Below, piece after piece: positions 6,915 to 62,730 of a stretch of 64,000 nucleotides of DNA. The translations under genes and the position numbers were made by a program. Each line of letters opens with the position of its first letter. Within the stretch, counting starts at the first letter, position 1. The notes beneath the pieces are model-generated. The model was given only the letters and a program-made list of their open reading frames with translations. It had not been told where the DNA came from and did no database searches. Origin of the DNA: Candidatus Ratteibacteria bacterium (GTDB lineage: Bacteria; CAZDME01; JAYEMH01); contig JAYEMH010000039.1 in the NCBI GenBank assembly GCA_034717985.1, forward strand, positions 1,784-65,783, read 5' to 3'.

Positions 6915-6957
6915 AATAAATTAATTTCCCTTCTCCGCTTCCAAAGAAGTTCCGGGA

Positions 6958-7878
6958 TCAAAAATTCCGGGGTCTGGTCTCAACATTTAACAAATTATAC
7001 CCTTTTATTATACTGCCGCAAACCATCTGGACCATATCGCTAAATTCTCCCATATCGCCTTTCCCTAAAGCAAGATAGTATTTATGGCGGTCATCTATCT
7101 GAATTATGGCCGGCGGGTAGCCTTTACTCAACAACTGGGTGATTAGAATCAAGCGGCCTACCCGGCCGTTTCCATCAAAAAAGGGATGGATGGCTTCAAA
7201 CTCATAATGGTCATTTGCTGCTTTACCAACAATATCCTTACCGTACCGATTGACATTGGATACAAACTTTTTCATCTTTATCGGAACCATCTGGGCTGAG
7301 GGAAGCGCCTTCTCGGTATTGGTAAGATTAACATAACCGGTCCTATATTTTCCCGGAAGCTTATTGTTGAAATTATACATCACTATAGAATGAAGCTTTA
7401 AGATATATTCTTCGTCAATTTTAAAGTTGGGTTTTATTCGCTCAAAGATAAATTCCAGGGCGTTTCTGTGATTTACTGCCTCTAAAACCTCAAAAAGATT
7501 TTTGCCTTTCACCTTTTCACCCTTAAATGCCTTCTCTGTCTCCCGGCGGGTCATTCGGTTCCCTTCAATGGCGTTGGAATTATAGGTCATCTCGAGACAG
7601 AATTTCTCCTGAATGGTTTTATTGCTTTTTAAGATTTTTATCGGGTTGCCCAGGTCATTTTTGAACCGGCGGATATACTCTCTTAAATCAACATGCTCTT
7701 TAAACAATTCGTCAATTTTATGAACTCGGGCCGGATGCGGTTTAATCCCCTTATCCAGCCAGCGGTAAACTGTTTTATAAGTAACCTCCATGAGTCTGGC
7801 CAATTCAGATCTGGATATCTTAGTCTGCTCAACGATTTTCCTTAACTTCTCGTTATCGGCAATTATTGCCTTTTTCAT
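6958..7878 (-). CDS. Fic/Doc family AMPylation-type protein with N-terminal HTH
   Basis: Canonical Fic motif [13 protein letters not shown]; N-terminal [23 protein letters not shown]; C-terminal residues run into the cassette junction motif. Confidence 0.8.
6977..7013. repeat. cassette junction motif copy overlapping the 3' end of the Fic gene
   Basis: The Fic ORF C-terminus ...GYNLLNVET is encoded by the motif. Confidence 0.7.
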
Positions 7879-9219: not shown

Positions 9220-10521
9220 TTACTTTTTAGCAAATTTCTCCCAATTATAAACAACAATCTCTCTTAAATCATTCCAATCCAATTTCTTCTTCCTATATTC
9301 CCTCGGAATCACCGGAAGATGCCGTAGCACAAAATCCATCTTCTTTTTTTTACTGTGGACTATGGACTGCCGACTGTCGACCATACAATCATAGTTTACA
9401 TAAACTCCCATCCCGCACATCCATGCCAACATTTTCGGCGACCCTTTAAAAATCAATCTCACCGCCCGAAATAACGAAAAATTTCCGCTTTTCTCCTGAT
9501 ATAAAATCAACTTACACCAGCCTTTAATCTTATATTTTAGCCTTTCTCTTTTTAAATTTAACTTCGCCAGCTCTCTGTAGTCTGCAATCTGTGGTCTGTG
9601 GTCTGTGGACTGTCGACTGCCTGCCCTGAGCGAAGTCGAAGGGTGGACTATTTGAAACTTCCCGCTCTCCCACAGCCAGATATCTTTATAATAATTTCTT
9701 AGTTTTTCCCATTCTTTCAATACTTCTTTGCGGCTTTTAAATAACAAATCCTCTTTCGGATTCAATTTAAAATCCATCCATTTCCTAATCTTTTCCATTA
9801 AAGGGGAGGAGGATGGTATCGGGGTGTAATCAAGCCGGTTCATTTGGGCCAACATATTTTTATAAAGCGGTTCATATTTGCCTTCGGCAATTAAAATAGA
9901 AGAGGCAAGATTAACATAGCCCTTACAAATTTGGTAGGTTTGCGTGGGCATTATCCCCTTCTTATCTCCAAATATTTCTTTTAATTGCTCTAAGGCCCGG
10001 TTAAAAATAACCACCATTGATTCTTCCTTTTTGATATCATCCCTTTTATAATCAGGGACTACATCTAAAATCTTCCGGTTTCCCCATACCACCTTGCCGT
10101 AGTTCTTTAATTCGTAGGTAAAAGCGGTTGGGGGCATTTTTGTTAAAGACTTTTCTAAAAAAAGACTTAAATCAACTTCAAGATCAAATTCTTCTTCTTT
10201 AAGCTTCCTTGAAACATTTATGCTGATTTGGTTCGGTTTATCTCTTAACATCCGATAATCTGCTTCTTTAGTTAATACAACTATGAATTCCGAATCGCTT
10301 AAAAATACCGGCCGATTATTTCTGTCAATATATACCGTTCCTTCTCCTTTGGAGAAACTGCCGATTAATATGACTGATTCTATATTCTGCCCGGATATAT
10401 TTTCAACGATAACCTCACAAACGTTTTTTAAAAAGTCTTGCACAACAAAATCATACGTCTTTATATTTAAGAATTTGTCTTTTAAAGATGTTTTTTCAGT
10501 TGCGGCTTTATTTTCTGCCAT
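9220..10521 (-). CDS. hypothetical protein, possible pol-beta-like nucleotidyltransferase domain; contains in-frame dispersed-repeat insertions
   Basis: LIGSFSKGEGTV...LSDSEF weakly resembles a GS...DxE NTase signature; two copies of the GTGGACT-type repeat inside the ORF translate in frame; 5' end overlaps udk. Confidence 0.3.
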   Translation of the reverse strand: MAENKAATEKTSLKDKFLNIKTYDFVVQDFLKNVCEVIVENISGQNIESVILIGSFSKGEGTVYIDRNNRPVFLSDSEFIVVLTKEADYRMLRDKPNQISINVSRKLKEEEFDLEVDLSLFLEKSLTKMPPTAFTYELKNYGKVVWGNRKILDVVPDYKRDDIKKEESMVVIFNRALEQLKEIFGDKKGIMPTQTYQICKGYVNLASSILIAEGKYEPLYKNMLAQMNRLDYTPIPSSSPLMEKIRKWMDFKLNPKEDLLFKSRKEVLKEWEKLRNYYKDIWLWESGKFQIVHPSTSLRAGSRQSTDHRPQIADYRELAKLNLKRERLKYKIKGWCKLILYQEKSGNFSLFRAVRLIFKGSPKMLAWMCGMGVYVNYDCMVDSRQSIVHSKKKKMDFVLRHLPVIPREYRKKKLDWNDLREIVVYNWEKFAKK

Positions 10522-20894: not shown

Positions 20895-21075
20895 TTTTTC
20901 TCTGTGTCCTTTTTATTTTTTTGTCTTTCTGTTAGAGGGACGGGCATGCCCGTCCCCTACATATTTTTCAATCCTTTTAAAACCCTGCCTGCCCCGTAAC
21001 TCCGCCAAAGGCGGATGGTATTGGGGTAAATCCTGTCAAAAATTCTTTGTTTTTTTCTTTCAATTCTATTCTAAT
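20895..21075. repeat. ~100-150 bp direct repeat copy 1 (contains palindrome GGGACGGGCATGCCCGTCCC) flanking vapBC
   Basis: Near-identical to 21785-21900; copy 1 carries an extra ~45-bp internal segment. Confidence 0.7.
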
Positions 21076-21120
21076 ATTTAAATAAAACCGTTCCCTTTTT
21101 ACTTACTTATTATTTTTCGA

Positions 21121-21501
21121 TTAATTAGACGCTGGCCCTATTTTCTTATAAGCTATCCTTAATATAGCAGCTGCGTGTTGCAGCTTAGTATCTAAAGTCC
21201 ATAGAGAAACTTCATTTAATAGCGTAGTTGCCAGAAGATGAACATCAATAAGGCCAATGCCCTTACCCATCAAATTCTTGTTTTCAATAAATAATAATAC
21301 TTCTTCATTGTCTATCACCTCAACCATAGGGAGAGAACTAAGCAATGACAAAATTACTCTCCTGTTCTTAATATTACCGCATGCAAGTTCTCCAATAATG
21401 AAAGGATGGCAAACTACATCACCGTCATTCAGGAGTTGCTCGAGTTTAGAATTACTATTGTGTAAATGAGAAACCCATACTGATGTATCAACAAGAATCA
21501 T
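21121..21501 (-). CDS. vapC: PIN-domain ribonuclease toxin
   Basis: MILVDTSVW N-terminus, conserved acidic residues of PIN fold. Confidence 0.8.
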   Translation of the reverse strand: MILVDTSVWVSHLHNSNSKLEQLLNDGDVVCHPFIIGELACGNIKNRRVILSLLSSLPMVEVIDNEEVLLFIENKNLMGKGIGLIDVHLLATTLLNEVSLWTLDTKLQHAAAILRIAYKKIGPASN

Positions 21502-21692
21502 TAATTCACTCTCCTGCGAGGTATAATATGTAAATTCTTTTCGGTCCCCCCTAATTTAGCCAGCCTTTTACTGCTTTCTCGAGCAATTAGCGCTTCCAAA
21601 CCTAATCTGACTAGAGTGGTTTTCTCTTTAATTCCCGTGAGTCTTGATACTTTTTTAATCAAGTCGTCTTTAATATTTAATGTTGTTCTCAT
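21501..21692 (-). CDS. vapB: VapB-type antitoxin
   Basis: MRTTLNIKDDLIKKVSRLTGIKEKTTLVRLGLEALI; start taken at internal Met of the longer tracked ORF; 1-nt overlap with vapC. Confidence 0.55.
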   Translation of the reverse strand: MRTTLNIKDDLIKKVSRLTGIKEKTTLVRLGLEALIARESSKRLAKLGGTEKNLHIIPRRRVN

Positions 21693-21784
21693 ATAGCAAC
21701 TCCTTTCATATATTTCATATGTATTAGTATGCACCAAATATACATATATGTCAAGTTTTTTTGGTATAACGAGTCTGTAGAAAA

Positions 21785-21900
21785 AGCCCATTTTATTTTT
21801 TTGTCTTTCTGTTAGAGGGACGGGCGTGTCCGTCCCCTACATATTTTTTAATCCTTTTTAAATCCTGTAAATCCTGTCAAAAAAATTTTATTTTTTTTAT
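21785..21900. repeat. direct repeat copy 2 (GGGACGGGCGTGTCCGTCCC hairpin) between vapB and trxB
   Basis: Aligns with 20895-21075 over ~100 bp. Confidence 0.7.
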
Positions 21901-35301: not shown

Positions 35302-35451
35302 TTAAACTTTATCCGGCGAAATAAGAACAGTCTTACCGTTCTTCCAAATAGCAAGAGGACGGCCTGTTTTTTTGTGTCGAGCCACTACTCCTTTCACAGC
35401 TTCTTTCAGGGCAAGCATTGCTTTATCCTGCAAAGACATCCTTTTTTTCAT
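35302..35451 (-). CDS. small basic hypothetical protein (49 aa), possible cognate partner of upstream zeta-like kinase (not in ORF track)
   Basis: Own translation MKKRMSLQDKAMLALKEAVKGVVARHKKTGRPLAIWKNGKTVLISPDKV; ATG lies 5 nt after the zeta-like gene stop. Confidence 0.25.
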   Translation of the reverse strand: MKKRMSLQDKAMLALKEAVKGVVARHKKTGRPLAIWKNGKTVLISPDKV

Positions 35452-35455
35452 AAAT

Positions 35456-36034
35456 TTACCTCGCTAATAATTTTATTTTTTCAAATAACCCTTGATGGAT
35501 TATTGAAACCTGCCCATTTTTTGTTTTTGCTATTAATGTTGGGATAGATCCGGCATTATCAAACAGCATCCACGAATCAAGTAAAGGCTGGTATAATTTA
35601 AAAAAGTTGCAGATCGACCTTTTAAAACGTCTTCTCACATCTTGCGCCGGAACATTGTGCCCACCGTATGAAATCCGATCCTTAATACGGGCTATAGCCA
35701 GCTCTTCATCCGGAATCCACAAAAAGAATAGGTGAAGCTTGTACCCTTTTGTTCTTAATTCCTTGAAAAAATTAACATATGATTTACCTGCAAGTGTTGA
35801 TTCAAATGAAAAATCTATCCCGGCCCTAGCAAATTCATGAATTTGACTTAGAACAAGTTTTCCTGCTTTAATGGCTTCGCTTCGAGGAGAAAAGGGCGAA
35901 AGTCCTTGCGCGATAAGATCCGCATTGACAAAATTTGGACATTTTGCATAGTTAGGCAAAAATTCCTTAGCAAAGGTTGTTTTACCTGAACCATTAGGTC
36001 CCGCTATTATGTAAACGTTTTTATAGTTCTTCAT
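35456..36034 (-). CDS. zeta-toxin/AAA_33-like P-loop kinase
   Basis: IIAGPNGSGKTTFAKEF Walker A, ~190 aa compact kinase fold resembling zeta toxin/COG4185. Confidence 0.55.
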   Translation of the reverse strand: MKNYKNVYIIAGPNGSGKTTFAKEFLPNYAKCPNFVNADLIAQGLSPFSPRSEAIKAGKLVLSQIHEFARAGIDFSFESTLAGKSYVNFFKELRTKGYKLHLFFLWIPDEELAIARIKDRISYGGHNVPAQDVRRRFKRSICNFFKLYQPLLDSWMLFDNAGSIPTLIAKTKNGQVSIIHQGLFEKIKLLAR

Positions 36035-45217: not shown

Positions 45218-45769
45218 TTATTGCTTCTGCATGCTTTGAATGAAAATCCGTCGGGCAAATTCCTTGAATTTAGGCTCCATTTTATTCAGGATGTCTTCGG
45301 CCTCATCCGGACTCAAAGAAAACTTATCAGGCAAAATCTTCTTAAAACGCCGCCGTAATTTCACCGCAATAATATGCGGATTCTCGTTTTCAAACTCCTG
45401 GCGGTCAATCTCCATAACATCTCCGATTGTATATATCCCCTTTTGATTATCAAAGGACAAATCAAGATTTTCAGATATTTTTAAAACCTTATTAAAAGAC
45501 CGCCCGGAGGAAATTGCCTTTTTGTCCCCTGAAAATTCGATCTTCTCCTTGGATTCTTCAGTCTTTGGTCGTGTCGCCTTTCTCCGGACATAAGGATTGG
45601 CTTTTATGAGGCTATTTATATCCTCCTTCCGAAAGCGGAGATTTCCCCCTATTTTATAAGCGGTAAGTCTGCCGCTTCGGAGGAAATTATAAATCTGGCT
45701 GCGGCTAATCTTTAAAATCCTTTCGACTTCTTTTCTGGTAAGCAGCTCTTCTATACTTGTATTAGGCAT
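45218..45769 (-). CDS. HTH_17 (excisionase/MerR-type) DNA-binding protein with ~120-aa C-terminal extension
   Basis: TRKEVERILKISRSQIYNFLRSGRLTAYKIGGNLRFRKEDI HTH; paralogous to the small ORF at 11096..11266. Confidence 0.5.
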   Translation of the reverse strand: MPNTSIEELLTRKEVERILKISRSQIYNFLRSGRLTAYKIGGNLRFRKEDINSLIKANPYVRRKATRPKTEESKEKIEFSGDKKAISSGRSFNKVLKISENLDLSFDNQKGIYTIGDVMEIDRQEFENENPHIIAVKLRRRFKKILPDKFSLSPDEAEDILNKMEPKFKEFARRIFIQSMQKQ

Positions 45770-46009
45770 ATATCAGCATAGCAATAGGGTATATATATAG
45801 CGCTCTGTCAAATAAATAAGGGGTGCATAGTTCACAGATGGGCACAGATGAGAAGAAACAGATGATCTCAGATATTTCCAACGATATCTGTGCTAATCTT
45901 GCATCTTTTAATCTGTGCTAATCTGTGCTTTAATCATACCTTTATTTTGTTTACAAGGCAATATAGTATGCGGGGATATTAACAATTTTTTTTCTTTTTG
46001 TCAAGAATT

Positions 46010-46070
46010 TTCCTAATGCCCCCTATTCGACAGGATTAACAGGATGTTTTATCATCTTCTTTAAATCGCT
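46010..46070 (-). pseudogene. diverged duplicate of the RND-pump gene 3' end (encodes ...KHPVNPVE* vs genuine ...DHINPVE*)
   Basis: 19-bp exact repeat CCCTATTCGACAGGATTAA at 46022-46040 and 46690-46708 with extended ~65% similarity on both sides. Confidence 0.6.
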
Positions 46071-46152
46071 CAAAATTCATACCTTCCACAAACTTTTCTA
46101 TACTTTCCATAGAGCCCGGAATATCTTGCAAATAAAGTTTATTGTTTCTCAT
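46036..46152 (-). pseudogene. hepT: truncated hepT (DUF86) N-terminal fragment, 38 codons
   Basis: Own translation MRNNKLYLQDIPGSMESIEKFVEGMNFERFKEDDKTSC* aligns to HepT N-termini (e.g. 36391..36735: [21 protein letters not shown]); ATGA overlap with mntA stop; reading frame runs into the duplicated pump-3' sequence. Confidence 0.5.
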
Positions 46153-46442
46153 AAATAGGCTGCCTCTTTCAGAATAGATTTTTTCAACTCTTCTCTTAAG
46201 GCTCTCTCTGGTACCACATCTACCTTCTGATTGAGTTTTTCTTCAAGGAATAAAGCCAGCCCCAAAAAATCAAAAAGGTCTGCATTTTCTTCAAATTCCA
46301 CAAGGATATCAATGTCACTACCCTTTTTTTGCTCTCCCTTTATAAATGAGCCGAAAAGCCCCAACCTTTTCACTTTATATTTCTTCATGATTTCTTCCCT
46401 TACCTGCTCAAGTAATCTTAGAATTTCTTCTTTTGACATCAT
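46149..46442 (-). CDS. mntA: MntA-type nucleotidyltransferase (orphaned antitoxin)
   Basis: [24 protein letters not shown]; start at internal MMSKEE. Confidence 0.65.
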   Translation of the reverse strand: MMSKEEILRLLEQVREEIMKKYKVKRLGLFGSFIKGEQKKGSDIDILVEFEENADLFDFLGLALFLEEKLNQKVDVVPERALREELKKSILKEAAYL

Positions 46443-46687
46443 CTCTTTGTCTCCGCAACAAAAATTAATCTGGAAATATTCAATTCTTAATGTGATAATC
46501 TGCCTCATTATCCCACAAAAAAAAAGAGAAGTCAATAAAAAAACCCCGTCGTAAAACGGGAGTTTTTTGAAACTTAGCCTCTTTCCAAACTATTTATTTG
46601 TTAAACCCTTTTTCACCTCTTTAAAAATGAATCTCCGTCTTTTAACTTAAACCTCAAGAAAACTTTCAACAGAATTTTCGTAAGGCC

Positions 46688-49600
46688 CTATTCGACAGGA
46701 TTAATGTGATCTGTAGTTAATCTCTTCCCAAAAAATTTAAGCTTGAAATCATCAAAAATTAAATAAAAACTGGGCAGGAGAAAGAGAGTCAAAACGGTAG
46801 AAACCGAAAGTCCCCCGATAACCGTGATCGCCAAAGGCGACCAGAGTCCGGAGGCTTCACTGCGATCCATGGCCATAGGCAGAAGGCCGATTACCGTAGT
46901 CAAACTGGTGATTAAAATAGGCCTGAGGCGGTCCTGTCCGGCATTAAAAATTGCCTTCATCCGCTCCATCCCGGCCCGCCGTAAATCATTAAGATGGGCA
47001 AGAAAAATTATGGCGTTGTTAACCGCAATGCCGGCCAGCATAATTATTCCGATTAATACCGAGATACCTTTCATAGTCCCGGTCAAAAGCATAAAAATCA
47101 CCACCCCGATTAAGGCCAGGGGCAAAGTAGTCATAATGAGAAAGGGCTGCCAGAAACTTTCAAAAAAAGCAGCCAGAACCATATAAATCAATATAATGGT
47201 GATGACAACAACGGAAAGGAGCTGCCTCTGATTTTCCTTCATTTCTTCATAACTGCCGCCAATTTTATAATGATATTTCGGAGGCATCTCCATAGGTTTA
47301 AGCGCCTTTTGCACCTTCTCCACCGCCTTCCCCATCGGAAGTCCGGTGACGGTTGCGGTAACTTGAATCATCCGTCTTTTGTCTTTTCTCCAGATTTCGC
47401 TGGGTCCATAGGCAGAGGAAAAAACTGCCATTTGCCCAAGATAAACCGGCTGGCCCTCTGGATTGACCAAGGTTAAACGTCTCAAATCTTCAAATGAATC
47501 GCGGTCTTCTTTTTGAAGCCGGACAATAGTCTCCACTTCCTTCCCCTTGGTATGGTAGCGAGTCGGCACCAGCCCCCTTAACTGAGCATGCAGGGCATCA
47601 GCAATTGCCTGAACAGAGAATCCCCAGAGCAGGGCTTTTTCTCTGTCAACAATAACGCCAATCTCCGGCCGCGGGGCACGCATTCTCAGACGCACCTCGG
47701 TTAAACCTTTGATACCATTCATTTTCTGCGAAATAACCCCGGCGAGCTTTTTTAACTTATCGTAGTCATGTCCGTAAATATCGATAGTTAATTCTTTGGT
47801 CACCATGCGCTTCGGTTCTTTAAAATAGATAAAGGCCTTCTCGATTTTTTCAACCTCTTTACGTAAAATATCGATAATTTGCCGGGTCGAACGCCGCCTC
47901 ATCCTCCGGGGTTCCAATTTAACGTTAATACGCGGGGACCAGGGTTTAATCCGCGAAGTAACCATTTTTACTTCAGGAAATTTCATAAGCATCTCCTCTA
48001 CCCTTTTTACTACTTCATCTGATTTTTCAAGTTTTGTCCCGGTAGGCATTTCTATAAAAATGGTAAATTCTTTTTCCTCCGTTCCTCCCCAGAGTTCCGA
48101 ACCCCGCTTTATAAAAATAAATCCGGAGATAAGAAACAAAATCAAAATAAGACTGATAAATAGAAACCGGAATCTAAGCGCGAAAGCCAGGAGACTCCGA
48201 TACCAGCTTTTTATCCTGGGGGAACCGGTAGAAAGAAGTGTCTCCCAGGATTCCTTATCATTTTTACTTTTCCCGGCTGACTCTGAAGTTTCGGGATAAA
48301 ACTTAATCCGGGCGCAAAGCATCGGAACCAGGGTTAAAGCAATAAAAAGGGAAGCCAGAAGGGCAAATACAATAGTAAGTCCTAAACTGCTGTAAAGCAG
48401 CCGGATTTTTTTGTTAGCAATAAGCAGGAATGGTAAAATTACCACGACGGTAGTAATAGTTGAGGCAACGATGGCTTTCCCCATTTCCTCGCTGCCCAGA
48501 ACAGCCGCCTTTCCGGCCGGCAGGCCTTTTTCCCTTTTTTGAAAAACATTTTCTAAAACCACTACCGAACTATCGACAATCATTCCGACCCCTAAGGCTA
48601 AACCGCTCAGGGTCATAACGTTCAAACTTAACCCCCCTAAATACATAAAAGCAAAGGTTATCATCAAACAACAGGGAATTGATAAACCGACAATCAAAGT
48701 TGCCCGCAGGCTCTTTAAAAAAACCAAAAGAACAAAAACCGCCAGCAGGCCTCCAAAGATCAAAGAAACCCTGACCGTCTTGATTGAAGAACGAATAAAA
48801 TCCCCTTGATTAAAAACAGTAACCAGCTTCAACTCGCGGCTCTGAAGGGCTAAACTTTCTTTTAGCGCTCGGGCAATGGCCTCGGTAACCATAATCGTAT
48901 TGGCCGTGCTTTCTTTTTGAATGTAGAGGGTTACCGCCGAAGTAAAATTCGTTCTGGAAAAACCGGTCGGGTCAAGAAAGAAATCTCTGACGACCGCCAC
49001 ATCTTTAAGCTTCACTAACGACCCGCCTTTCGGAGAGATAACTATTCCCAGATTTTTTATATCTCCCAGGGTTTTAAATTGCCCGCTCATTCTGATCAGG
49101 AATTTATCTTTTTTCCGCTCTATATCCCCAAGCAGCAGATTAAGATTATTCACACTGATAATCTCCACCAGTCTTTTAATGGGAATCCCCTGGGCTTGCA
49201 GTTTAGCCTGATCTATCTCGATCAAAATCTTTCGTTCCCTGCCCCCTACCACCTCAATCTTGGCCACTCCGCCAATTCTTTTTATTTTCGGTTTTATATT
49301 CTCTTCGACAATCCGGCGGATAACCTCCGGACTGAAGCGGCTGACTACAGAAACTATCATCACCGGCATATCCGAATAGTTGAATCGGGCAATTACCGGT
49401 TTCTCTATCTCCGACGGCAGTTTATTTTTTATTCGATTGAATTTCTCTCTCACTTCAAGCGCGGCAAAGTTCATATTTGTCCCTGGCTCAAAACTGATTT
49501 CTACCGTACTTGAGCCTTCTTCAGAGAGTGATTCAATTTTCCTGAGGTGGCTGAGGTCTCCCATCGCATCTTCTATGGGTTTGGTAACTAAATTTTCTAC

Positions 49601-49777
49601 CCCGACCGGAGGCATACCGCCTCGGATAGAAACATAAATGGTAATGGTAGAAAACCCGACGTTAGGCATTAATTCCATCGGAAGACCACCGAGGGCAACA
49701 GCTCCAATTACAATTACACCCAGGGTAATCATAAGAATGGTTATCGGACGGTTATTAGCAAAACGAGGCAGGGTCAT
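46688..49777 (-). CDS. RND efflux permease (AcrB/HAE family), subunit 2
   Basis: 12-TM, two large periplasmic loops, 1029 aa. Confidence 0.85.
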   Translation of the reverse strand: MTLPRFANNRPITILMITLGVIVIGAVALGGLPMELMPNVGFSTITIYVSIRGGMPPVGVENLVTKPIEDAMGDLSHLRKIESLSEEGSSTVEISFEPGTNMNFAALEVREKFNRIKNKLPSEIEKPVIARFNYSDMPVMIVSVVSRFSPEVIRRIVEENIKPKIKRIGGVAKIEVVGGRERKILIEIDQAKLQAQGIPIKRLVEIISVNNLNLLLGDIERKKDKFLIRMSGQFKTLGDIKNLGIVISPKGGSLVKLKDVAVVRDFFLDPTGFSRTNFTSAVTLYIQKESTANTIMVTEAIARALKESLALQSRELKLVTVFNQGDFIRSSIKTVRVSLIFGGLLAVFVLLVFLKSLRATLIVGLSIPCCLMITFAFMYLGGLSLNVMTLSGLALGVGMIVDSSVVVLENVFQKREKGLPAGKAAVLGSEEMGKAIVASTITTVVVILPFLLIANKKIRLLYSSLGLTIVFALLASLFIALTLVPMLCARIKFYPETSESAGKSKNDKESWETLLSTGSPRIKSWYRSLLAFALRFRFLFISLILILFLISGFIFIKRGSELWGGTEEKEFTIFIEMPTGTKLEKSDEVVKRVEEMLMKFPEVKMVTSRIKPWSPRINVKLEPRRMRRRSTRQIIDILRKEVEKIEKAFIYFKEPKRMVTKELTIDIYGHDYDKLKKLAGVISQKMNGIKGLTEVRLRMRAPRPEIGVIVDREKALLWGFSVQAIADALHAQLRGLVPTRYHTKGKEVETIVRLQKEDRDSFEDLRRLTLVNPEGQPVYLGQMAVFSSAYGPSEIWRKDKRRMIQVTATVTGLPMGKAVEKVQKALKPMEMPPKYHYKIGGSYEEMKENQRQLLSVVVITIILIYMVLAAFFESFWQPFLIMTTLPLALIGVVIFMLLTGTMKGISVLIGIIMLAGIAVNNAIIFLAHLNDLRRAGMERMKAIFNAGQDRLRPILITSLTTVIGLLPMAMDRSEASGLWSPLAITVIGGLSVSTVLTLFLLPSFYLIFDDFKLKFFGKRLTTDHINPVE

Positions 49778-56092: not shown

Positions 56093-56272
56093 TTTCCCGC
56101 CACTCTATACAATTTATACGACGTTAAAACGAAGTATAGCATATATGTATGACTAAAACAAGGGGAAATTACGTTATATTGGAACCCACAATTTGGAAGG
56201 AACTGCCGGCAGGAAAAAAAGAAAATTTTACTATAGACTGTGGACTATGGACTATCGACTGTGGACTAAAAA

Positions 56273-58770: not shown

Positions 58771-58806
58771 GTAAAAATCTGCTGCCCCGACGCTTCGGGG
58801 TCAGGT
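58771..58806 (-). terminator. Rho-independent terminator after hicA (hairpin CCCCGAAGCGTCGGGG + T-tract)
   Basis: GC-rich 6-bp stem with GAAGCG-type loop followed on minus strand by AGATTTTTAC. Confidence 0.55.
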
Positions 58807-58824
58807 GCAGTAATTTAGCATCAT

Positions 58825-59040
58825 TTATAAATCATCTGGTGTCAACCCTGTCCGTTTGGCTATACGAGCAAGCATACGAGGCCCTATCTCTTCCCTATCG
58901 TGAAATGCAAAAATACAATCTGGCCATCCGGGTCTAGAAAGAACTCTGTGTGAAGTCCTATCGTGACGCTTGATGCTCCAACCAATACGCAACACTGCTG
59001 ATAGAACACGACGTGCCTTTGTAGATGGCCATTGACTCAT
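58825..59040 (-). CDS. hicA: HicA-family mRNA interferase toxin
   Basis: ARRVLSAVLRIGWSIKRHDRTSHRVLSRPGW... YcfA/HicA fold pattern. Confidence 0.7.
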   Translation of the reverse strand: MSQWPSTKARRVLSAVLRIGWSIKRHDRTSHRVLSRPGWPDCIFAFHDREEIGPRMLARIAKRTGLTPDDL

Positions 59041-59237
59041 GCTGGCACCGCAAAAAGTTCATCTAATTCTGGAATAGATTCTCCATGTTCCAAACGATCT
59101 GCTATCACGCGAAGAGCCAAAGCTTCTACTTTGAAGATTGCCTCTTCGCGACTTTGACCATATCCCATCACGCCAGGCAAATCTTTAACTTCTGCTATCC
59201 AGCGACCGTCATTTTCAAGTTCTATTTCGATACGCAT
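59037..59237 (-). CDS. hicB: HicB-family antitoxin
   Basis: MRIEIELENDGRWIAEVKDLPGVMGYGQSREEA UPF0150 pattern; 4-nt overlap with hicA. Confidence 0.7.
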   Translation of the reverse strand: MRIEIELENDGRWIAEVKDLPGVMGYGQSREEAIFKVEALALRVIADRLEHGESIPELDELFAVPA

Positions 59238-59351
59238 CTAATCACACCTCCCTTATAATTTTCTCGACCATCATCGGCAAATCTAATTTTAATGCTAATG
59301 TGAAACTCACCTGCCCCGAACTTTCAAAATCAGTTGTAGCGCGTTAGAGGT

Positions 59352-59606
59352 TTATTTATCGTTATACTTAGTAAAGATTTTTTCAATCGCTTCCCGCCTG
59401 TCCGTTCGAACGTGCTCAGTATACGCCTTGGCAGAAACAATGGCGATTTCATCTTTTTTTAATTCATTTTGTGTTTTTATTTGTTCAATGTAATCTTTGA
59501 ATAAATCTACCAATTCGAAAAATTTAGTACACAATTTTCTGTTTGCAATAGTGGTTCCAATGGTACCCGCGATAATCCCCAATACAATACCCAAAATAAA
59601 ATTCAT
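59352..59606 (-). CDS. small single-pass membrane protein, unknown
   Basis: N-terminal hydrophobic helix ILGIVLGIIAGTIGTTIA. Confidence 0.3.
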   Translation of the reverse strand: MNFILGIVLGIIAGTIGTTIANRKLCTKFFELVDLFKDYIEQIKTQNELKKDEIAIVSAKAYTEHVRTDRREAIEKIFTKYNDK

Positions 59607-59810
59607 AAAATCTCCTTTTATTTTTCACACAACGAGTCTGTAGCAAAAGCCCATTTCCTGAGAAAAAGCCAACAATCAGATTAAATCTCTCGTCAAGAGC
59701 AAACTTCGCTTTTAGTGATAAAAACCTTTTTTTGAACTTTTCCTACAGTTTCAACATTGGAAATCACCTGCCCCGCCGCTTCGGGGTCAGACACATTGAT
59801 TTATTATAAA

Positions 59811-60269
59811 TTATTGAAATACAAGAGAATTCAAATTGTTAAGTTTTCGCCCCTCCATTAGGTAGTCATCAATGGATTTTTTATATTGATTCTCAGCATT
59901 GTTGTATTCTTCCCAACCAATTTTTTCTTTTTGACTTTTCTTGTAGAGCAACTGCTGTTTATTGAGGAGAAAATTAATTGTAACTAGCAATTTGTCAAAG
60001 AAAGATATAAGTTGATTCAAATATTTCTTCTCATTATCATCCAAATTATCTCCATTTTCTTTCTTAAAGGAAAGCATTCCTTTCCTTTTTATTTCAAATT
60101 TTCTCAATATTTCATGACAATCATTAAGTATTTTCTCGAAGTCAACTTTTTTAAAAAGACTTATAAATATTCCACCTTTTTTTAAAATCTTATCGTGTAG
60201 CTGAATATATTCAGAAAGCAAATCATTGACCTCAAAAGAGAGTTTTTTCAATATTTCTGTATTATTCAT
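59811..60269 (-). CDS. hypothetical helical protein
   Basis: ORF only; no recognisable motif. Confidence 0.3.
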   Translation of the reverse strand: MNNTEILKKLSFEVNDLLSEYIQLHDKILKKGGIFISLFKKVDFEKILNDCHEILRKFEIKRKGMLSFKKENGDNLDDNEKKYLNQLISFFDKLLVTINFLLNKQQLLYKKSQKEKIGWEEYNNAENQYKKSIDDYLMEGRKLNNLNSLVFQ

Positions 60270-60312
60270 TTCTACCTATAATACGGCGCTACACCCTTTT
60301 CTTATTTTATTA

Positions 60313-60648
60313 TTAAACCTTTGGCGATTTCTTCTGTAACGTTCTTGCGCCGCGAAAATCGTGCTTTCGTTTCATGCGGTCAATCAGCTTCCCGTTTTTC
60401 TGTTCGATCAAAAGAAGGGAAAGTAAAATCTCCCGCCAGTCCTCAATGGTCCCATTGACACCAGCAACTTCCAGTCCGTCACTGGCGTACCATATCTCAA
60501 ATTTCTGCTTACAGCATCCACACTTGAGCAGATACCGAGGAGTCTTCTTTCCTGTACCCTTTTTGTGGTACACCCTGATTTGCGGCTGGCTGAATCGGGA
60601 TGTGTCATAGAACCGATTGGCTCGTTTTGGGATTTGCTGTTTCATCAT
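60313..60648 (-). CDS. hypothetical Cys-rich protein (CGCCKQK)
   Basis: ORF only. Confidence 0.3.
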   Translation of the reverse strand: MMKQQIPKRANRFYDTSRFSQPQIRVYHKKGTGKKTPRYLLKCGCCKQKFEIWYASDGLEVAGVNGTIEDWREILLSLLLIEQKNGKLIDRMKRKHDFRGARTLQKKSPKV

Positions 60649-60843
60649 TACATTATTATCTCCGTGCTAACAATCAATAAACGTATCACGCAATTTACGG
60701 CGTTTTTTTTAATGGAAGACAGGTTATAAACCTGTCCTTCCCGGTATTTGGTTTTTGATATTTTCTTTATCCTCTGCCCATGTGGATGGGTTATTGATTA
60801 TGTATTCATCTGTAGGGGCAGGCGCGCCTGACCCGTTAATTTT

Positions 60844-61044
60844 TTATTTTAAGGATTCTGATAATTGTATGTCAGAATGAATTATTTGATTTACAACAGA
60901 TGACACATCTTTGTTTTTCCTTTTGGCGATTTTGTCAACAAAAGTAAAGGCAGATGCATCGAGATAAACCGGAATATTCAATTCTAATTTAGGCCTATAG
61001 AATTTCCCTTTTTCCCCTTTTGAAAAGTTATATTCTTTTTTCAT
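60844..61044 (-). CDS. BrnA/CopG-like antitoxin (orphan?)
   Basis: MKKEYNFSKGEKGKFY N-terminal motif typical of BrnA-type antitoxins; no adjacent DUF497 toxin. Confidence 0.4.
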   Translation of the reverse strand: MKKEYNFSKGEKGKFYRPKLELNIPVYLDASAFTFVDKIAKRKNKDVSSVVNQIIHSDIQLSESLK

Positions 61045-61152
61045 ATTATCACCTCATATTGTTTTGATTCATTTTTTGAGGATCCCATTCAAAATCATAA
61101 CGCATTATTTAATCCTTTACCCCGACGCTTCGGGGTTCACTGGATTGCCTGG

Positions 61153-61368
61153 TTATGCAAGAATATGAACTTTCGCCGGTATATGATTGAGGGTCAAATC
61201 TCTTAAATCAAGTTTTTTGCTAGCATTATCAATGTCAACACCTACCAGTTCACCTTTGTCATCATAATCAAGATTAATCCCAGCTGATATTTCACGTGTT
61301 TCGACACTCGTCTTTGACGATAAATCGATATACAAGGAATCTGTTTCGGAATAGTAATTCAGCTTCAT
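61153..61368 (-). CDS. DUF2283 family small protein
   Basis: YYSETDSLYIDL...GELVGVDIDNAS pattern of DUF2283. Confidence 0.55.
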   Translation of the reverse strand: MKLNYYSETDSLYIDLSSKTSVETREISAGINLDYDDKGELVGVDIDNASKKLDLRDLTLNHIPAKVHILA

Positions 61369-61607
61369 AATTTAAACCTCCTGTCAAAAAATGCGTTGTG
61401 AATCGTAATTTTATCTTCAAGGGTCACAACGCGTAATATTTTACCCTCCATTTCCTCAAGTCGTCCCCAAAAGCGGAAGCGATTGTTCTCTTGTTGTTCT
61501 ACTTTCAAAGGGTTTTCGATAATTTTTATACGCCAATCTTTCTTAAGATAAGAACGTTTACGTAAAACCTCATTCTCAAAATATTGGGTGAATCCGTATT
61601 TCGTCAT
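61365..61607 (-). CDS. DUF4258 family protein (putative toxin partner of DUF2283)
   Basis: 4-nt overlap with the DUF2283 gene, size and pattern. Confidence 0.5.
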   Translation of the reverse strand: MTKYGFTQYFENEVLRKRSYLKKDWRIKIIENPLKVEQQENNRFRFWGRLEEMEGKILRVVTLEDKITIHNAFFDRRFKL

Positions 61608-61638
61608 ATAATCAGCGTCTTTTTAAATAGAGGACAGG

Positions 61639-62094
61639 TTATAAGCCTGTCCCTACAGGTATATTTATATCATTTTCGTCTTTTTCCCACGTTGCGGGAT
61701 TATTTATAATATATTCGCGGATATTATTTAAAGATTTGTCATTCCGTATAATGTGGTCGTGAAACGATCGCTGCCATAGATGTTTATTGAACGATTTCCA
61801 ATTATCATTTTTGACACCATCAATATATTTTTTTGTTGTTATGGTTTTGAACCGATGAATAATATCGGACAATGATAATTTATCTGTAGGGACAGGCCTC
61901 TGTGCCTGTCCGTTATTTAATAATTTATCATTTTCGCCCGCATTATTTAATTCCATTTTGTTGTCACATATCCGGCCAAATAATTCCTTGCGGTTGTTGG
62001 TACAAATCGTTACGTAATAATAACCGTTTGATGTATAATCATGGCCTTTTAATCGATTATTTCTACGTGTGTAAAATTTATTTTTCTTATTCAT
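61639..62094 (-). mobile_element. degenerate IS200/IS605-like Y1 (HUH) transposase / RAYT-like gene lacking the HUH motif
   Basis: GHDYTSNGYYYVTICTNNRKELFG and LWQRSFHDHIIRNDKSLNNIREYIINNP match the COG1943 family; the expected HxH region is replaced by palindrome-encoded GQAQRPVPTD; flanked by GGACAGG..CCTGTCC REP-like hairpins. Confidence 0.55.
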
Positions 62095-62164
62095 AACATA
62101 AAAATCAGCGACTGGTGCCCGCAGAGCGAAGCGGAGCGGGTAAACAGTCCACTGATTTGCTTTG

Positions 62165-62467
62165 TTAGCTACTAGACTTAAGCAATTTAATGCTTCTGAC
62201 AATATTTTTCTCTTCAACTAATTGCTCAGTTACAAACTTATGCAATATACTTGATATATAGGTTTGGTAAGGGATGCCTTCTTGTTCAGCATGTAATTTC
62301 AATAAATTTAAATCCTGGCCATTAACCCTTAAACTAATATTCTTCTTTTCTTTGGCCCTTTTTATGATATGTTCTATCTTTGTTCGTGTCTTTGCAGATA
62401 CGGGTCTATATTGCATGATATTTTCTTCAATGCGCTTCTCGTATTTGTTTAATTTTGCATTTTTCAT
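62165..62467 (-). CDS. brnA: BrnA-type (RHH/CopG) antitoxin
   Basis: NISLRVNGQDLNLLKLHAEQEGIPYQTYISSILHKFV. Confidence 0.6.
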   Translation of the reverse strand: MKNAKLNKYEKRIEENIMQYRPVSAKTRTKIEHIIKRAKEKKNISLRVNGQDLNLLKLHAEQEGIPYQTYISSILHKFVTEQLVEEKNIVRSIKLLKSSS

Positions 62468-62730
62468 TTTACACCACCTTTATATTTGTTATATAATTTT
62501 CTACTTGGATACACTGTTTTTAAAATAATATTTGAATTTTCATCTATCACAAAGGGCACCGCATAAATATAATCTTTTATCTCTATAACAAATATGCTCT
62601 GATTAGGTTTCCTCGGATGATCAAGGATATCTAAATATTTGTTATCTAATATAACTTCCGATATTTCTTCAAAAGATATATTTCGTTCAAGTTTTAACTG
62701 TTGATCCTTATCTTCATCCCAAATTATCAT
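62464..62730 (-). CDS. brnT: BrnT-type (DUF497) toxin
   Basis: IIWDEDKDQQLKLERNISFEEISEV N-terminus typical of DUF497; 4-nt overlap with brnA. Confidence 0.6.
   Translation of the reverse strand: MIIWDEDKDQQLKLERNISFEEISEVILDNKYLDILDHPRKPNQSIFVIEIKDYIYAVPFVIDENSNIILKTVYPSRKLYNKYKGGVK

What the first reader, a model, noticed from the sequence alone, without database searches (positions are those of the whole stretch)
46010..46715. Second instance of the same architecture: mntA plus a decayed hepT inserted at the 3' end of an RND pump gene, with the target 3' end duplicated
A 19-bp exact repeat CCCTATTCGACAGGATTAA occurs at 46022-46040 and 46690-46708, with extended partial identity on both sides. 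It duplicates the final codons of the RND permease (...DHINPVE* versus the remnant ...KHPVNPVE*). Between the copies the gene order is the same as at pth, reading target gene, then mntA, then hepT, then remnant. Here hepT is truncated to 38 codons that run into the remnant, leaving mntA as an orphan antitoxin. Two independent insertions therefore share an identical logic: HEPN/NTase cargo, 3'-end target, target-end duplication and no recombinase.
Basis: seen in the sequence. Interest (0 to 1): 0.7.

Follow-up and report, generated by a model that had tools for sequence, protein, structure and literature searches.

The report
Decayed toxin-antitoxin cassette after pump gene
A small, horizontally acquired toxin-antitoxin cassette with a half-deleted toxin gene sits just after an efflux-pump gene, bracketed by two copies of the pump gene's tail, one of which travels with the cassette; it is one of several such recombinase-less inserts in this genome and hints at how they spread.

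Summary
It brackets an intact mntA and a 38-codon hepT stump just downstream of an RND permease gene.

Five syntenic relatives have an empty site, so this is an insertion. A 99%-identical cassette in another metagenome (L014) has an intact 111-aa HepT, so the window lost 303 bp of hepT by a microhomology deletion.

The "target-end duplication" reading is only partly right:
- The distal repeat copy and about 20 nt beyond it accompany the cassette in L014, where both flanks differ.
- No empty-site relative contains the 19-mer.
- At pth, the distal gene-end copy is an outgroup to the resident gene.

The repeats therefore look like joints between a resident gene tail and a cassette-linked foreign tail, not a fill-in target duplication. 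The relatives' RND tail (KILDKKKKNC*), which doubles as the next gene's promoter, survives just after the distal repeat.

The same gene / cassette / gene-end-remnant layout recurs at four or more loci in the window. No recombinase is nearby and there are no attC-like hairpins. The closest precedent is "insertion with long target duplication" of restriction-modification genes. The mechanism, host recombination or a trans-acting integrase, is unresolved.

The parts
46688..49777 (-). RND (AcrB-type) permease gene, the gene next to which the cassette sits. It ends ...FFGKRLTTDHINPVE*, whereas close relatives end ...KILDKKKKNC*.
   Evidence: Pfam ACR_tran 2.8e-232. C-terminal comparison with L016, L017, L019, L001 and L018. 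About 92% nt identity to L016.
46671..46704 (-). Proximal repeat copy R1. It consists of the exact 19-mer TTAATCCTGTCGAATAGGG (46686-46704, covering INPVE*), then CCTTAC, then GAAAATTCT (46671-46679). After the TAG it stays in frame with the relatives' ...TKIL... tail.
   Evidence: R1 sits in a 42-nt (14-codon) in-frame extra segment relative to L016.
46640..46670 (-). A 31-nt segment of unknown origin (GTTGAAAGTTTTCTTGAGGTTTAAGTTAAAA) between R1 and the part of the cassette shared with L014.
   Evidence: Not in L014. No significant similarity to the relatives' promoter or to the L014 right flank.
46043..46639 (-). Cassette body, 99% identical (591/597) to L014 199-795. It comprises a leader, its own terminator, its own promoter, mntA and the first 37 codons of hepT. 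GC is 34% against 41% for the window.
   Evidence: blastn. GC content.
46544..46561 (-). Intrinsic-terminator-like hairpin carried at the 5' end of the cassette. It is also present in L014.
46507..46535 (-). The cassette's own sigma70-like promoter (TTGACT-17-GATAAT, with TG).
46149..46442 (-). mntA, a 97-aa minimal nucleotidyltransferase antitoxin. It is intact, carries G-S...D-x-D (GSFIKGEQKKGSDID), and overlaps hepT by ATGA.
   Evidence: Pfam NTP_transf_2 and Polbeta. 494 homologues with E<=1e-10, the closest 99-100% identical.
46036..46152 (-). hepT stump. The 38-codon ORF is the HepT N-terminus up to ..DDKTS, then reads into the repeat and stops. The Rx4H catalytic region is missing.
   Evidence: 35/38 identity to L014 HepT. 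L014 HepT matches PF01934 at 7e-31. No Pfam hit for the stump itself.
46043..46045 (-). Junction of a 303-bp deletion (3-nt microhomology ATC) that removed hepT codons 38-111 plus most of the 74-nt spacer after the hepT stop.
   Evidence: L014 796-1098 is absent from the window. The shared interval is 939 nt in L014 and 636 nt in the window.
46004..46045 (-). Distal repeat copy R2, made of ATCCTG, the 19-mer (46021-46039) and GGCATTAGGAAAATTCT. It is 41/42 identical to L014 1096-1137, so it is linked to the cassette in an independent context.
45976..46011 (-). The RND tail shared by the relatives, now displaced. AAA ATT CTT GAC AAA AAG AAA AAA AAT TGT TAA = KILDKKKKNC* (46011-45979). It contains the TTGACA-17-TAATAT promoter of the next gene (46004-45976).
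   Evidence: Near-identical to the RND 3' ends of L016, L017 and L019. Promoter scan.
45218..45769 (-). Downstream neighbour, a 183-aa HTH_17 (excisionase-like fold) protein. It is conserved in the same position in all empty-site relatives, so it is not part of the insert.
   Evidence: Pfam HTH_17 1.9e-12. Synteny.

Best explanation
A compact MntA/HepT (type VII, HEPN/MNT) toxin-antitoxin cassette, with its own terminator and promoter, was acquired horizontally. It was inserted into the roughly 20-nt space between the functional end of the RND permease gene and the -35 box of the next gene's promoter.

The incoming DNA already carried an RND-tail segment from another lineage downstream of hepT. 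That segment comprises the 19-mer, about 10 diverged nt and GAAAATTCT. It paired with the resident RND tail, and a conservative single-crossover (Campbell-type insertion-duplication) event followed. The crossover resolved in GAAAATTCT, at the 3' edge of the homology.

The result is: resident tail, then cassette, then foreign tail, then the resident promoter. On this reading the 19-bp repeat is homology between two gene-end copies of different origin. It is not a fill-in target-site duplication.

No cassette-encoded recombinase is needed. Host homologous recombination on 20-110 nt of homology is the proposed catalyst, and this step is inferred.

Later, a 303-bp microhomology deletion removed the HepT catalytic part. 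This disarmed the toxin and left mntA as an orphan antitoxin with no addiction function.

Shown: the insertion, the foreign linkage of the distal copy, the deletion, and the recurrence of the layout. Inferred: a circular intermediate, the crossover point, and RecA dependence.
For: - Empty sites in five relatives with identical synteny.
- The insertion is conservative. The resident tail up to GAAAATTCT and the promoter from TTGACA are both intact, with no base lost relative to L016.
- L014 carries the same cassette at 99% identity, followed by ATCCTG, the 19-mer and GGGGCATCAGGAAAATTCT (41/42). Its homology to the window stops exactly after GAAAATTCT, and both of its flanks differ from the window.
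- R1 and R2 differ in the 10 nt between the 19-mer and GAAAATTCT, and R2 there matches L014. So the crossover lies 3' of that stretch.
- R1 stays in frame with the relatives' TKIL tail.
- At pth, the proximal copy plus 35 nt past the stop match the empty-site relative L023 at the gene-wide level of about 82-87%.
- The distal pth copy differs at 22-23 of 58 sites from the window, L023 and L022 alike, while those three differ from each other at only 11-13 of 58. Its changes fall 8:3:11 by codon position, which is a coding-like pattern.
- Repeats are locus-specific gene ends (RND, pth, Fic, Y1_Tnp) with no shared motif between the pth and RND cassettes.
- The repeats form no attC-like hairpin.
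- No integrase or transposase lies within or beside the insert.
- Cassette GC is 34% against 41% for the window.
Against: - The left flank of L014 does not fit. Homology to the window starts abruptly at GACGGAG (46639). The window's 31 nt between R1 and that point are absent from L014. An extra event is therefore required, either a deletion in the window or a remnant of an earlier cassette.
- A crossover in a 9-nt identity next to mismatches, when a 19-nt identity was available, is unusual for RecA. It is more typical of a site-specific enzyme.
- No same-lineage empty site containing the 19-mer was found, so the claim that R1 is resident rests on reading frame and context only.
- A 23-nt match to the cassette-type arm plus core sits at the very end of an unrelated 47%-GC contig (L021). 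This hints at a mobile-element end rather than RND-tail homology.
- The origin of the first cassette / gene-end linkage is not explained.
- The 8:3:11 codon-position pattern is not statistically significant (p about 0.1).
Confidence: 0.45

Rival explanations
1. The repeats are attL and attR of a site-specific integrative element, or of a cassette mobilised in trans by a tyrosine or serine recombinase encoded elsewhere. The 19-mer or GAAAATTCT would be the crossover core. The window keeps only the cargo end of the element because the rest, including the integrase, was deleted or never belonged to the cassette.
For: - The insertion is conservative and precise, with an identical core in both joints.
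- The arm-plus-core sequence travels with the cassette in L014, and homology ends sharply at one point.
- The same 23-mer (arm plus core) lies at a contig end in an unrelated genome (L021).
- The window copy is deletion-prone, as the 303-bp loss shows. That could also explain the abrupt left boundary at 46639.
- A motif GACAGGATTWACAGGAT is shared with the VapBC flank repeats.
Against: - No integrase was found in 64 kb.
- Each locus has a different repeat made of its own gene end, and the pth and RND cassettes share no end motif.
- At pth the arrangement is the reverse of the classical 3'-end-targeting element: the proximal copy is resident-like and the distal copy foreign.
- The pth insert is trimmed exactly to the TA operon (about 660 nt), which is unlikely to arise repeatedly by decay.
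- The repeats show no inverted-repeat or hairpin structure above shuffled controls.
Confidence: 0.25
2. One reading: a true 'insertion with long target duplication'. The cassette inserted in situ between staggered breaks about 40 nt apart, fill-in duplicated the resident RND tail, and the two copies then diverged.
For: - A direct repeat longer than 30 bp spans the stop codon of the upstream gene. There are no mobility genes, and an empty site exists in relatives. These are the criteria used for restriction-modification genes in PMC2853133.
- With about 5 differences in 42 nt, a clean 19-nt stretch is not improbable (my estimate, p about 0.09).
Against: - R2 (41/42) is attached to the same cassette in L014, whose flanks on both sides differ.
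- The empty sites align only with the TACGAAAATTCT part, not with the 19-mer.
- The analogous distal copy at pth is an outgroup, not a recent copy of the resident gene.
Confidence: 0.08
3. Both 19-mers are cassette-derived. The 46 nt that R1 has in place of 4 nt in L016 would be a solo right-end scar of an earlier copy of the same element family. The real target duplication would be only the 9-12 nt (T)ACGAAAATTCT, which implies a transposon-like, target-specific insertion just upstream of the -35 box.
For: - The 19-mer is absent from all five empty sites, whereas GAAAATTCT is present in four of them (L001 has GAAAAATCT) and flanks the insert on both sides.
- The L021 23-mer lies in an unrelated context.
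- The same junction is a hot spot: L018 has a different roughly 150-nt insert there, and the window has a separate MITE-like insert 40 nt further on.
Against: - The cassette has no terminal inverted repeats.
- In L014 GAAAATTCT follows the cassette, but no copy precedes it within 198 nt.
- The extra 42 nt in R1 is in frame with the RND ORF and the relatives' tail, which fits a lineage-specific tail variant.
Confidence: 0.1
4. The cassettes are integron-type gene cassettes, in a CALIN-like array lacking an integrase, and the repeats are attC sites.
For: - Compact cassettes sit in arrays, each followed by a repeat, for example 518-7878.
- TA cassettes are typical integron cargo (general knowledge).
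Against: - The repeats do not fold as attC-like hairpins. z-scores were -0.8 to +1.1 for the RND repeat. The Fic-array repeats formed only short local stems.
- There is no consistent RYYYAAC/GTTRRRY pair.
- The repeats are coding-like fragments of the upstream gene's 3' end.
- The cassettes have their own promoters.
- No intI gene was found in the window.
Confidence: 0.02

Closest known systems
Insertion with long target duplication of restriction-modification gene complexes (Nobusato et al. 2000, Gene 259:99; Furuta et al. 2010, PMC2853133)
   Same: - A small addiction-type gene unit lacks mobility genes and is absent from a related genome.
- It is flanked by direct repeats longer than 30 bp that often span the stop codon of the neighbouring gene, so that gene stays intact.
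- The mechanism is unknown. A life cycle of invasion, repeat-mediated amplification and release, then reinvasion has been hypothesised.
   Different: - In the RM cases both repeat copies match the single target copy in the empty genome about equally well, for example 45/46, 45/46 and 44/46.
- Here the empty sites lack the 19-mer.
- The distal copy is linked to the cassette elsewhere (L014) or is an outgroup (pth).
- The cargo is a toxin-antitoxin pair, not an RM system.
Campbell-type insertion-duplication, or attL/attR of integrative elements that target the 3' end of a gene or tRNA
   Same: - The insertion is conservative and reciprocal, bracketed by two hybrid copies of a gene-end segment.
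- One arm travels with the element.
   Different: - There is no integrase.
- The polarity is reversed at pth. The gene-proximal copy is resident-like and the distal one foreign, whereas classical elements supply the proximal 3' end and displace the resident one.
- The inserts are only 0.65-1 kb.
C-terminal displacement and orphan-module arrays of Rhs, CDI and T6SS effector-immunity loci, ascribed to homology-facilitated illegitimate recombination (PMC5361080 and references there)
   Same: - Successive horizontally acquired toxin/immunity-type modules accumulate downstream of a conserved gene.
- They leave 3'-end stubs and orphan protective genes.
- There is no dedicated recombinase and a homologous anchor is invoked.
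   Different: - In those arrays the displaced distal stubs are the older resident ends and the proximal part is the newcomer.
- Here the proximal end is resident-like, and the distal stub appears to arrive with the newcomer (pth) or travels with the cassette (L014).
HepT/MntA (HEPN/MNT) type VII toxin-antitoxin systems
   Same: - mntA lies upstream of and overlaps hepT.
- The MNT nucleotidyltransferase fold and HepT-like RNase family are present, with an Rx4H-type motif (RDRLIH) in the intact L014 copy.
- MNT neutralises HEPN by NMP transfer, according to the abstract of PMC11586414.
   Different: In the window the toxin lacks residues 38-111, including the catalytic motif. The locus cannot act as a TA system, and mntA is an orphan.
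Integron gene cassettes and CALIN arrays
   Same: - Compact cassettes, often TA pairs, occur in arrays.
- Each is followed by a repeat, and there is no nearby integrase, as in CALINs.
   Different: - The repeats are unstructured fragments of the upstream gene's 3' end, not attC hairpins.
- The cassettes carry their own promoters and terminators.

Membership tests
HepT/MntA (HEPN/MNT) type VII toxin-antitoxin | Antitoxin with the minimal nucleotidyltransferase fold and the G-S ... D-x-D motif | tested here: met
   NTP_transf_2 3.5e-16 and Polbeta 1.8e-13. The sequence GSFIKGEQKKGSDID is present.
HepT/MntA (HEPN/MNT) type VII toxin-antitoxin | Toxin of the HepT-like HEPN family with an Rx4-6H catalytic motif | tested here: not met
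   The window ORF stops after residue 38 and has no Pfam hit. The motif RDRLIH and a PF01934 match (7e-31) exist only in the intact L014 copy. The window copy is a pseudogene of a family member.
HepT/MntA (HEPN/MNT) type VII toxin-antitoxin | Bicistronic order antitoxin then toxin, with overlapping stop and start | tested here: met
   ATGA overlap at 46149-46152. The same order occurs in L014, L015 and L020.
HepT/MntA (HEPN/MNT) type VII toxin-antitoxin | Neutralisation of the toxin by AMPylation (NMP transfer) | not testable with these tools
   This is a biochemical property, known only from the literature (abstract of PMC11586414).
Insertion with long target duplication (Nobusato/Furuta) | Insert absent from a related genome with conserved flanks | tested here: met
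   Five empty-site relatives: L001, L016, L017, L018 and L019.
Insertion with long target duplication (Nobusato/Furuta) | Flanking direct repeat longer than 30 bp, with no mobility gene in the insert | tested here: met
   The repeat is about 42 nt (34 nt in R1 and 36 nt in R2 from the 19-mer to GAAAATTCT, with a 2-nt indel): 19 exact, 8-10 diverged, 9 exact. The insert holds only mntA and the hepT stump.
Insertion with long target duplication (Nobusato/Furuta) | Both repeat copies align with one target copy in the empty genome and are equally close to it, i.e. a true duplication | tested here: not met
   Only (T)ACGAAAATTCT aligns with the empty sites, and the 19-mer is absent from all five. 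The distal copy is 41/42 identical to the cassette-linked copy in L014, which has different flanks.
Site-specific integrative element (attL/attR at a gene 3' end) | Identical core in both joints, with one arm travelling with the element | tested here: met
   19-nt core. ATCCTG plus the core plus 20 nt are shared with L014.
Site-specific integrative element (attL/attR at a gene 3' end) | Integrase or recombinase gene in the element or adjacent to it | tested here: not met
   None lies between the repeats. The HTH_17 neighbour is conserved in the empty sites. The only recombinase-like ORF in the window is Y1_Tnp at 61639-62217.
Site-specific integrative element (attL/attR at a gene 3' end) | The element supplies the gene-proximal 3' end and the resident end is displaced distally | tested here: not met
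   At pth the proximal end plus 35 nt beyond the stop are resident-like (matching L023), and the distal copy is an outgroup. At the RND locus the result is inconclusive.
Integron gene cassette / attC | An imperfect-palindrome attC site that folds as a hairpin with R''/R' boxes (RYYYAAC ... GTTRRRY) | tested here: not met
   ssDNA folds of the RND repeat copies are no better than shuffles, with z-scores from -0.8 to +1.1. The Fic-array repeats give only short local stems. No consistent box pair was found.
Integron gene cassette / attC | IntI integrase with attI next to the array | tested here: not met
   No integrase in 64 kb. CALIN arrays lack one too, so this alone is not decisive.
Transposon / IS / MITE | Terminal inverted repeats and a short fixed-length target-site duplication | tested here: not met
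   No terminal inverted repeats at the cassette ends. A 9-12-nt duplicated GAAAATTCT could be read as a target duplication, but L014 has no matching left copy.
C-terminal displacement / orphan arrays (Rhs, CDI, T6SS effector-immunity) | Distal stubs are older resident 3' ends displaced by a newcomer fused to the conserved gene | tested here: not met
   The proximal ends are resident-like, and the distal stubs are foreign or cassette-linked.

The most novel reading that the evidence does not exclude
In this candidate-phylum lineage (Ratteibacteria/Omnitrophota), toxin-antitoxin and defence cassettes may move without a recombinase of their own. Each would carry, on its downstream side, a captured 3'-end fragment of the host gene it last sat behind. 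That fragment would act as a portable homology 'address'. It would direct a conservative single-crossover insertion behind the orthologous gene of a new host, keep that gene intact, and leave a foreign gene-end stub. Repeated rounds would build arrays such as the one at 518-7878.
Probability: 0.2. Interest if true: 0.7.

Novelty: new variant of a known kind. Interest (0 to 1): 0.45.

Why it matters
How toxin-antitoxin and other small defence modules move between chromosomes without transposases or integrases is a long-standing loose end. 'Insertion with long target duplication' has been described for restriction-modification genes, but it has no established mechanism.

This window offers four or more instances in 64 kb of core chromosome. 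For two of them there are empty-site relatives. For one there is an independent, intact copy of the same cassette.

Together these show that the distal 'duplicate' is not a local copy. It is a gene end of foreign origin at pth, and at the RND locus it travels with the cassette. That narrows the possible mechanisms to homology-anchored or site-specific single-crossover integration. It also makes the question testable with metagenomic read data, by looking for circular junctions and for recombined single-repeat alleles.

Taken alone, the RND-locus insert is an ordinary, already decaying islet: a disarmed toxin gene and an orphan antitoxin.

Tried and rejected
- Pfam on the 38-aa ORF, and BLASTP against the two other HepTs in the window, gave nothing. 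Identity was settled only through L014.
- Exact-sequence look-ups of the window's RND protein, of MntA (P0001) and of the pth-locus MntA found nothing. The source assembly is not in that index.
- attC and hairpin test: the RND repeat copies fold no better than shuffles. The Fic-array repeats give only short local stems. The integron reading was rejected.
- Rfam at gathering threshold found only tRNA-Gln.
- Viral-contig scans for the 19-mer and for the cassette's left end gave no hits.
- The metagenome scan for the 19-mer gave a single hit, L021, in an unrelated context. Its status is unresolved.
- Similarity between the 31-nt segment after R1, the L014 right flank and the relatives' promoter is not significant. 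I dropped the idea that these are diverged promoter copies.
- Similarity to the left of the 19-mer between R1 and L014, and similarity of the repeat to the L019 tail, are not significant (p=0.65 and 0.16). Both ideas were dropped.
- A shared ATAGGGG or GAATAGG motif between the RND, pth and Fic-type repeats is too short to mean anything.
- XerC/D (dif-like) reading of the Fic-array repeat (ATTTGTTAAAT against TTATGTTAAAT): there is no convincing XerC arm, and the repeats are direct rather than alternating. This was not pursued.
- More distant cassette homologues (L015 at 79% nt identity; L020, whose MntA is 82% identical) sit in other contexts and lack the 19-mer. The repeat is therefore not a conserved feature of the cassette family.

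Full report
**Observation**

All genes in this region are on the minus strand. The RND (AcrB-type) permease gene occupies 46688-49777 and ends ...DHINPVE*.

The 19-mer CCCTATTCGACAGGATTAA occurs exactly twice in the 64-kb window, at 46021-46039 and 46686-46704. Even allowing three mismatches there are only these two matches, against 0.01 expected from shuffles.

Read on the coding strand, the two copies are:
- TTAATCCTGTCGAATAGGG--CCTTACGAAAATTCT (proximal copy, R1)
- TTAATCCTGTCGAATAGGGGGCATTAGGAAAATTCT (distal copy, R2)

That is 19 identical nt, about 10 diverged nt and 9 identical nt. Similarity stops sharply on both sides.

**Anatomy between the repeats**

In order, on the coding strand:
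- 31 nt of unknown origin (46670-46640).
- A leader, then a terminator hairpin (46561-46544).
- A TTGACT-17-GATAAT promoter (46535-46507).
- An intact 97-aa mntA (46442-46149; NTP_transf_2 3.5e-16).
- A 38-codon ORF overlapping mntA by ATGA (46152-46036).
- R2.

Directly after R2 comes TTGACA-17-TAATAT (46004-45976). This is followed by a 160-nt palindromic insert and then a 183-aa HTH_17 gene (45769-45218).

**It is an insertion**

NCBI names the identical proteins as coming from a "Candidatus Ratteibacteria" MAG, and the nearest genomes are labelled Omnitrophota.

Five relatives share the synteny RND, HTH_17, hisG, TPR, ispE and so on:
- L001 (RND 79% aa identity)
- L016 (about 92% nt identity)
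- L017
- L019
- L018

In all of them the RND gene is followed directly by the HTH_17 gene. The gap is 17-38 nt, or 188 nt in L018, against 918 nt in the window.

In L016, L017 and L019 the RND gene ends ...KILDKKKKNC*. It is encoded by AAAATTCTTGACAAAAAGAAAAAAAATTGTTAA, and this stretch contains the promoter of the HTH_17 gene. The window retains that sequence almost unchanged immediately after R2 (46011-45979). So the tail shared by the relatives, together with the promoter, was displaced by the insert.

None of the five empty sites contains the 19-mer. Only (T)ACGAAAATTCT aligns. R1 sits in a 42-nt, in-frame extra segment relative to L016, and after its TAG it remains in frame with ...TKIL....

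**The hepT stump**

Pfam and BLASTP against the window's other HepTs are silent on the 38-aa ORF.

The closest MntA homologue apart from the source record (P0002, 99%) lies on a 1174-nt Logan contig, L014. That contig carries mntA plus an intact 111-aa HepT (PF01934 7e-31, motif RDRLIH).

The alignment of L014 to the window is:
- L014 199-795 equals window 46639-46043 (591/597).
- L014 1096-1137 equals window 46045-46004 (41/42).
- The two blocks overlap by ATC.

The window therefore lacks 303 bp: hepT codons 38-111 and most of the 74-nt spacer. The loss is a microhomology deletion.

The stump is 35/38 identical to L014 HepT. Its two substitutions are both non-synonymous, as expected for a pseudogene. 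A more distant homologue, L020, has an independent stop codon at the same DDKT position. So "decayed hepT, orphan mntA" is correct, but the truncation is a later event and not the insertion joint.

**What the repeats are**

In L014 the cassette is followed by ATCCTG, the 19-mer and GGGGCATCAGGAAAATTCT, which is R2. Yet the 198 nt upstream and the 37 nt downstream match neither the window nor any relative. The distal copy is thus physically linked to the cassette in an independent context.

In the diverged 10 nt, R2 follows L014 and R1 does not. Any crossover must therefore lie in or after GAAAATTCT.

Relative to L016 the insertion is conservative. Nothing is lost between the resident tail and the -35 box.

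These facts argue against a fill-in target duplication. They fit a reciprocal single crossover between the resident tail and a tail copy carried by the incoming DNA.

**The pth locus re-examined**

The gene order on the coding strand is:
- pth (37722-37084)
- mntA (37019-36732)
- hepT (36735-36391)
- a pth 3' remnant (36374-36276; tblastn E=2e-7)
- tRNA-Gln (36187-36114)

Relatives L023 and L022 have pth, a variable spacer and tRNA-Gln with no cassette.

The window's pth 3' end and 35 nt past its stop match L023 at the gene-wide level. Outside the 24-nt exact stretch, the remnant differs at 22, 23 and 22 of 58 sites from the window, L023 and L022 respectively. Those three differ from one another at only 11-13 of 58. 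The remnant's changes fall 8:3:11 by codon position.

The remnant is therefore an outgroup, coding-like pth end: foreign, not a decayed local copy. The 24-nt "core" is mostly the conserved AMNRFN motif, and 19 nt of it are identical in L023 too.

The polarity here, proximal copy resident and distal copy foreign, is the reverse of classical integrative elements that target gene 3' ends.

The pth and RND cassettes are distant paralogues (MntA 47.5% aa identity, HepT 40%). They share no terminal motif.

**Generality**

A systematic scan used the last 40 residues of every ORF against the 3 kb downstream. It finds same-strand C-terminal remnants for pth (6e-9), the Y1_Tnp gene (7.6e-8) and the Fic gene (6e-6), besides the expected tandem RND paralogues. 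It finds none in L001, L016, L018 or L022.

Other repeat-bracketed cassettes in the window:
- The region 518-7878 is an array of the Fic gene followed by five cassettes. Each cassette is followed by a Fic-C-terminus-like fragment such as [11 protein letters not shown] or EFTSMLELKRYDLLNVET*.
- VapBC (21121-21791) is bracketed by an 80-nt, 93%-identical repeat, about 110 nt with adjacent similarity, that includes a terminator.
- In the 58.7-62.7 kb TA array, terminator-containing repeats recur between cassettes.

All other ORFs of 90 aa or more that matched a Pfam family are housekeeping genes (five have no Pfam match). The only recombinase-like gene is the IS200-like Y1_Tnp.

**Mechanism**

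Best supported (0.45): the cassette arrived already linked to a foreign gene-end fragment. It integrated by a conservative Campbell-type insertion-duplication crossover at the edge of the homology, using host recombination. hepT was then deleted.

Main rival (0.25): a trans-acting or lost site-specific recombinase. Three observations favour it:
- The homology end shared by L014 and the window is sharp.
- The crossover fell in a 9-nt identity although a 19-nt identity was available.
- A 23-nt match to arm plus core lies at the very end of an unrelated contig (L021).

Weaker alternatives:
- In-situ long target duplication (0.08).
- A short target duplication next to a solo-end scar (0.10).
- The attC/integron reading (0.02), which is contradicted by the folding tests.

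**Unexplained**

- The left boundary of homology with L014 at GACGGAG, and the 31-nt segment after R1, fit no model without an extra event.
- The status of L021 is open.
- GACAGGATTWACAGGAT is shared, in opposite orientation, by R2/L014 and both VapBC flank copies.

**Comparison with known systems**

The gene pair belongs to the HepT/MntA type VII TA family, but it is functionally dead in the window.

The architecture is closest to "insertion with long target duplication" of RM genes (PMC2853133). It fails that class's implicit criterion that both copies derive from the local target. It resembles orphan-module arrays of Rhs, CDI and T6SS loci (PMC5361080), but with reversed polarity.

I therefore rate it a new variant of a known kind, of moderate interest. 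As an isolated locus it is an ordinary decaying islet. As one of four or more concordant cases with comparative controls, it is a useful handle on recombinase-less cassette mobility.

Noticed in passing
window 45801-45960: A 160-nt palindromic, MITE-like insert with CACAGAT repeats, imperfect terminal inverted repeats of about 22 nt and a CTATAT-type target duplication of about 6-8 nt. It lies in the 5' UTR of the HTH_17 gene, between that gene's promoter and start codon. It is absent from L016, L017 and L019 and is single-copy in the window.
   Followed up: partly
L018 5813-6000: A relative carries a different insert of about 150 nt at the same RND-tail / -35 junction. It gives its RND gene a new C-terminus (…QYIYGVKSQYQQKP*). 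The insert contains TTGAGATTTGACCCCATACTTACCCCATACTTA, which resembles the repeat between cassettes of the window's Fic array. This junction is therefore an insertion hot spot.
   Followed up: partly
window 518-7878: An array of the Fic gene (6958-7878) followed by five accessory cassettes: MntA/HepT, MNT plus an NTase_sub_bind HEPN, AAA_14/DUF4143, ATPase_2/DUF234, and AAA_14/DUF4143. Each cassette is followed by a 50-70-nt repeat that encodes a diverged Fic C-terminus (…[11 protein letters not shown], …ELKRYDLLNVET*, …ELKGYDLLR*). Two repeat subtypes alternate.
   Followed up: partly
window 20908-21897: A VapBC cassette (21121-21791) is bracketed by an 80-nt, 93%-identical intergenic repeat (about 110 nt with adjacent similarity) that includes a terminator hairpin, with a 39-nt indel. 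Both copies start with GACAGGATTTACAGGATT, which matches the two-unit ATCCTGTTAATCCTGTC of the RND distal repeat on the opposite strand.
   Followed up: partly
window 35302-36034: A zeta-toxin-like P-loop kinase (192 aa) plus a 49-aa ORF are inserted between tRNA-Gln and the H+-pyrophosphatase gene. The relative L022 has only 43 nt there. No long flanking repeat was seen.
   Followed up: partly
window 58775-62730: A further array of small modules: HicA/HicB, two ORFs with no family match, a DUF2283 pair, an IS200-like Y1_Tnp gene, and BrnT/BrnA (CopG). Repeated terminator-like hairpins (CCCCGACGCTTCGGGG; GGACAGGTTATAACCTGTCC) recur between modules. A coding-like remnant of a Y1_Tnp C-terminus lies at 60807-60727 (EYIINNPSTWAEDKENIKNQIPGRTGL).
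   Followed up: partly
L021 1-23 (Ga0068714_10029280): The only metagenome hit to the 19-mer is a 23-nt identity (CCTGTTAATCCTGTCGAATAGGG, the cassette-type arm plus core). It lies at the very start of a 47%-GC contig that encodes FemAB-like and O-antigen-ligase-like proteins. Similarity ends right after ATAGGG, the same point at which R1 and R2 diverge.
   Followed up: partly
L020 554-889: A hepT whose partner MntA is 82% identical to the window's, in another metagenome, has an in-frame TAG right after …DDKT. This is the same position where the window copy is truncated, so toxin inactivation has happened independently more than once.
   Followed up: no
window 46671-46760 and the RND 3' ends of L001, L016-L019: The segment between the last transmembrane helix (…FDDF(K/R)LK) and the KILDKKKKNC* tail differs in every relative: FFGTT, FFGRM, FKLPHPWIAR, IKSREIKFLG. 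The tail itself is conserved, apparently because it doubles as the promoter of the next gene.
   Followed up: partly
window 1-64000: Every gene called in 64 kb is on the minus strand except one HicB-like ORF (260-472). The plus strand has C well above G (0.237 against 0.178). Spacers next to pth and tRNA-Gln, and at 9345-9379 and 56230-56264, carry short tandem motifs (CCACAG, GTGGACT) that differ between relatives.
   Followed up: no
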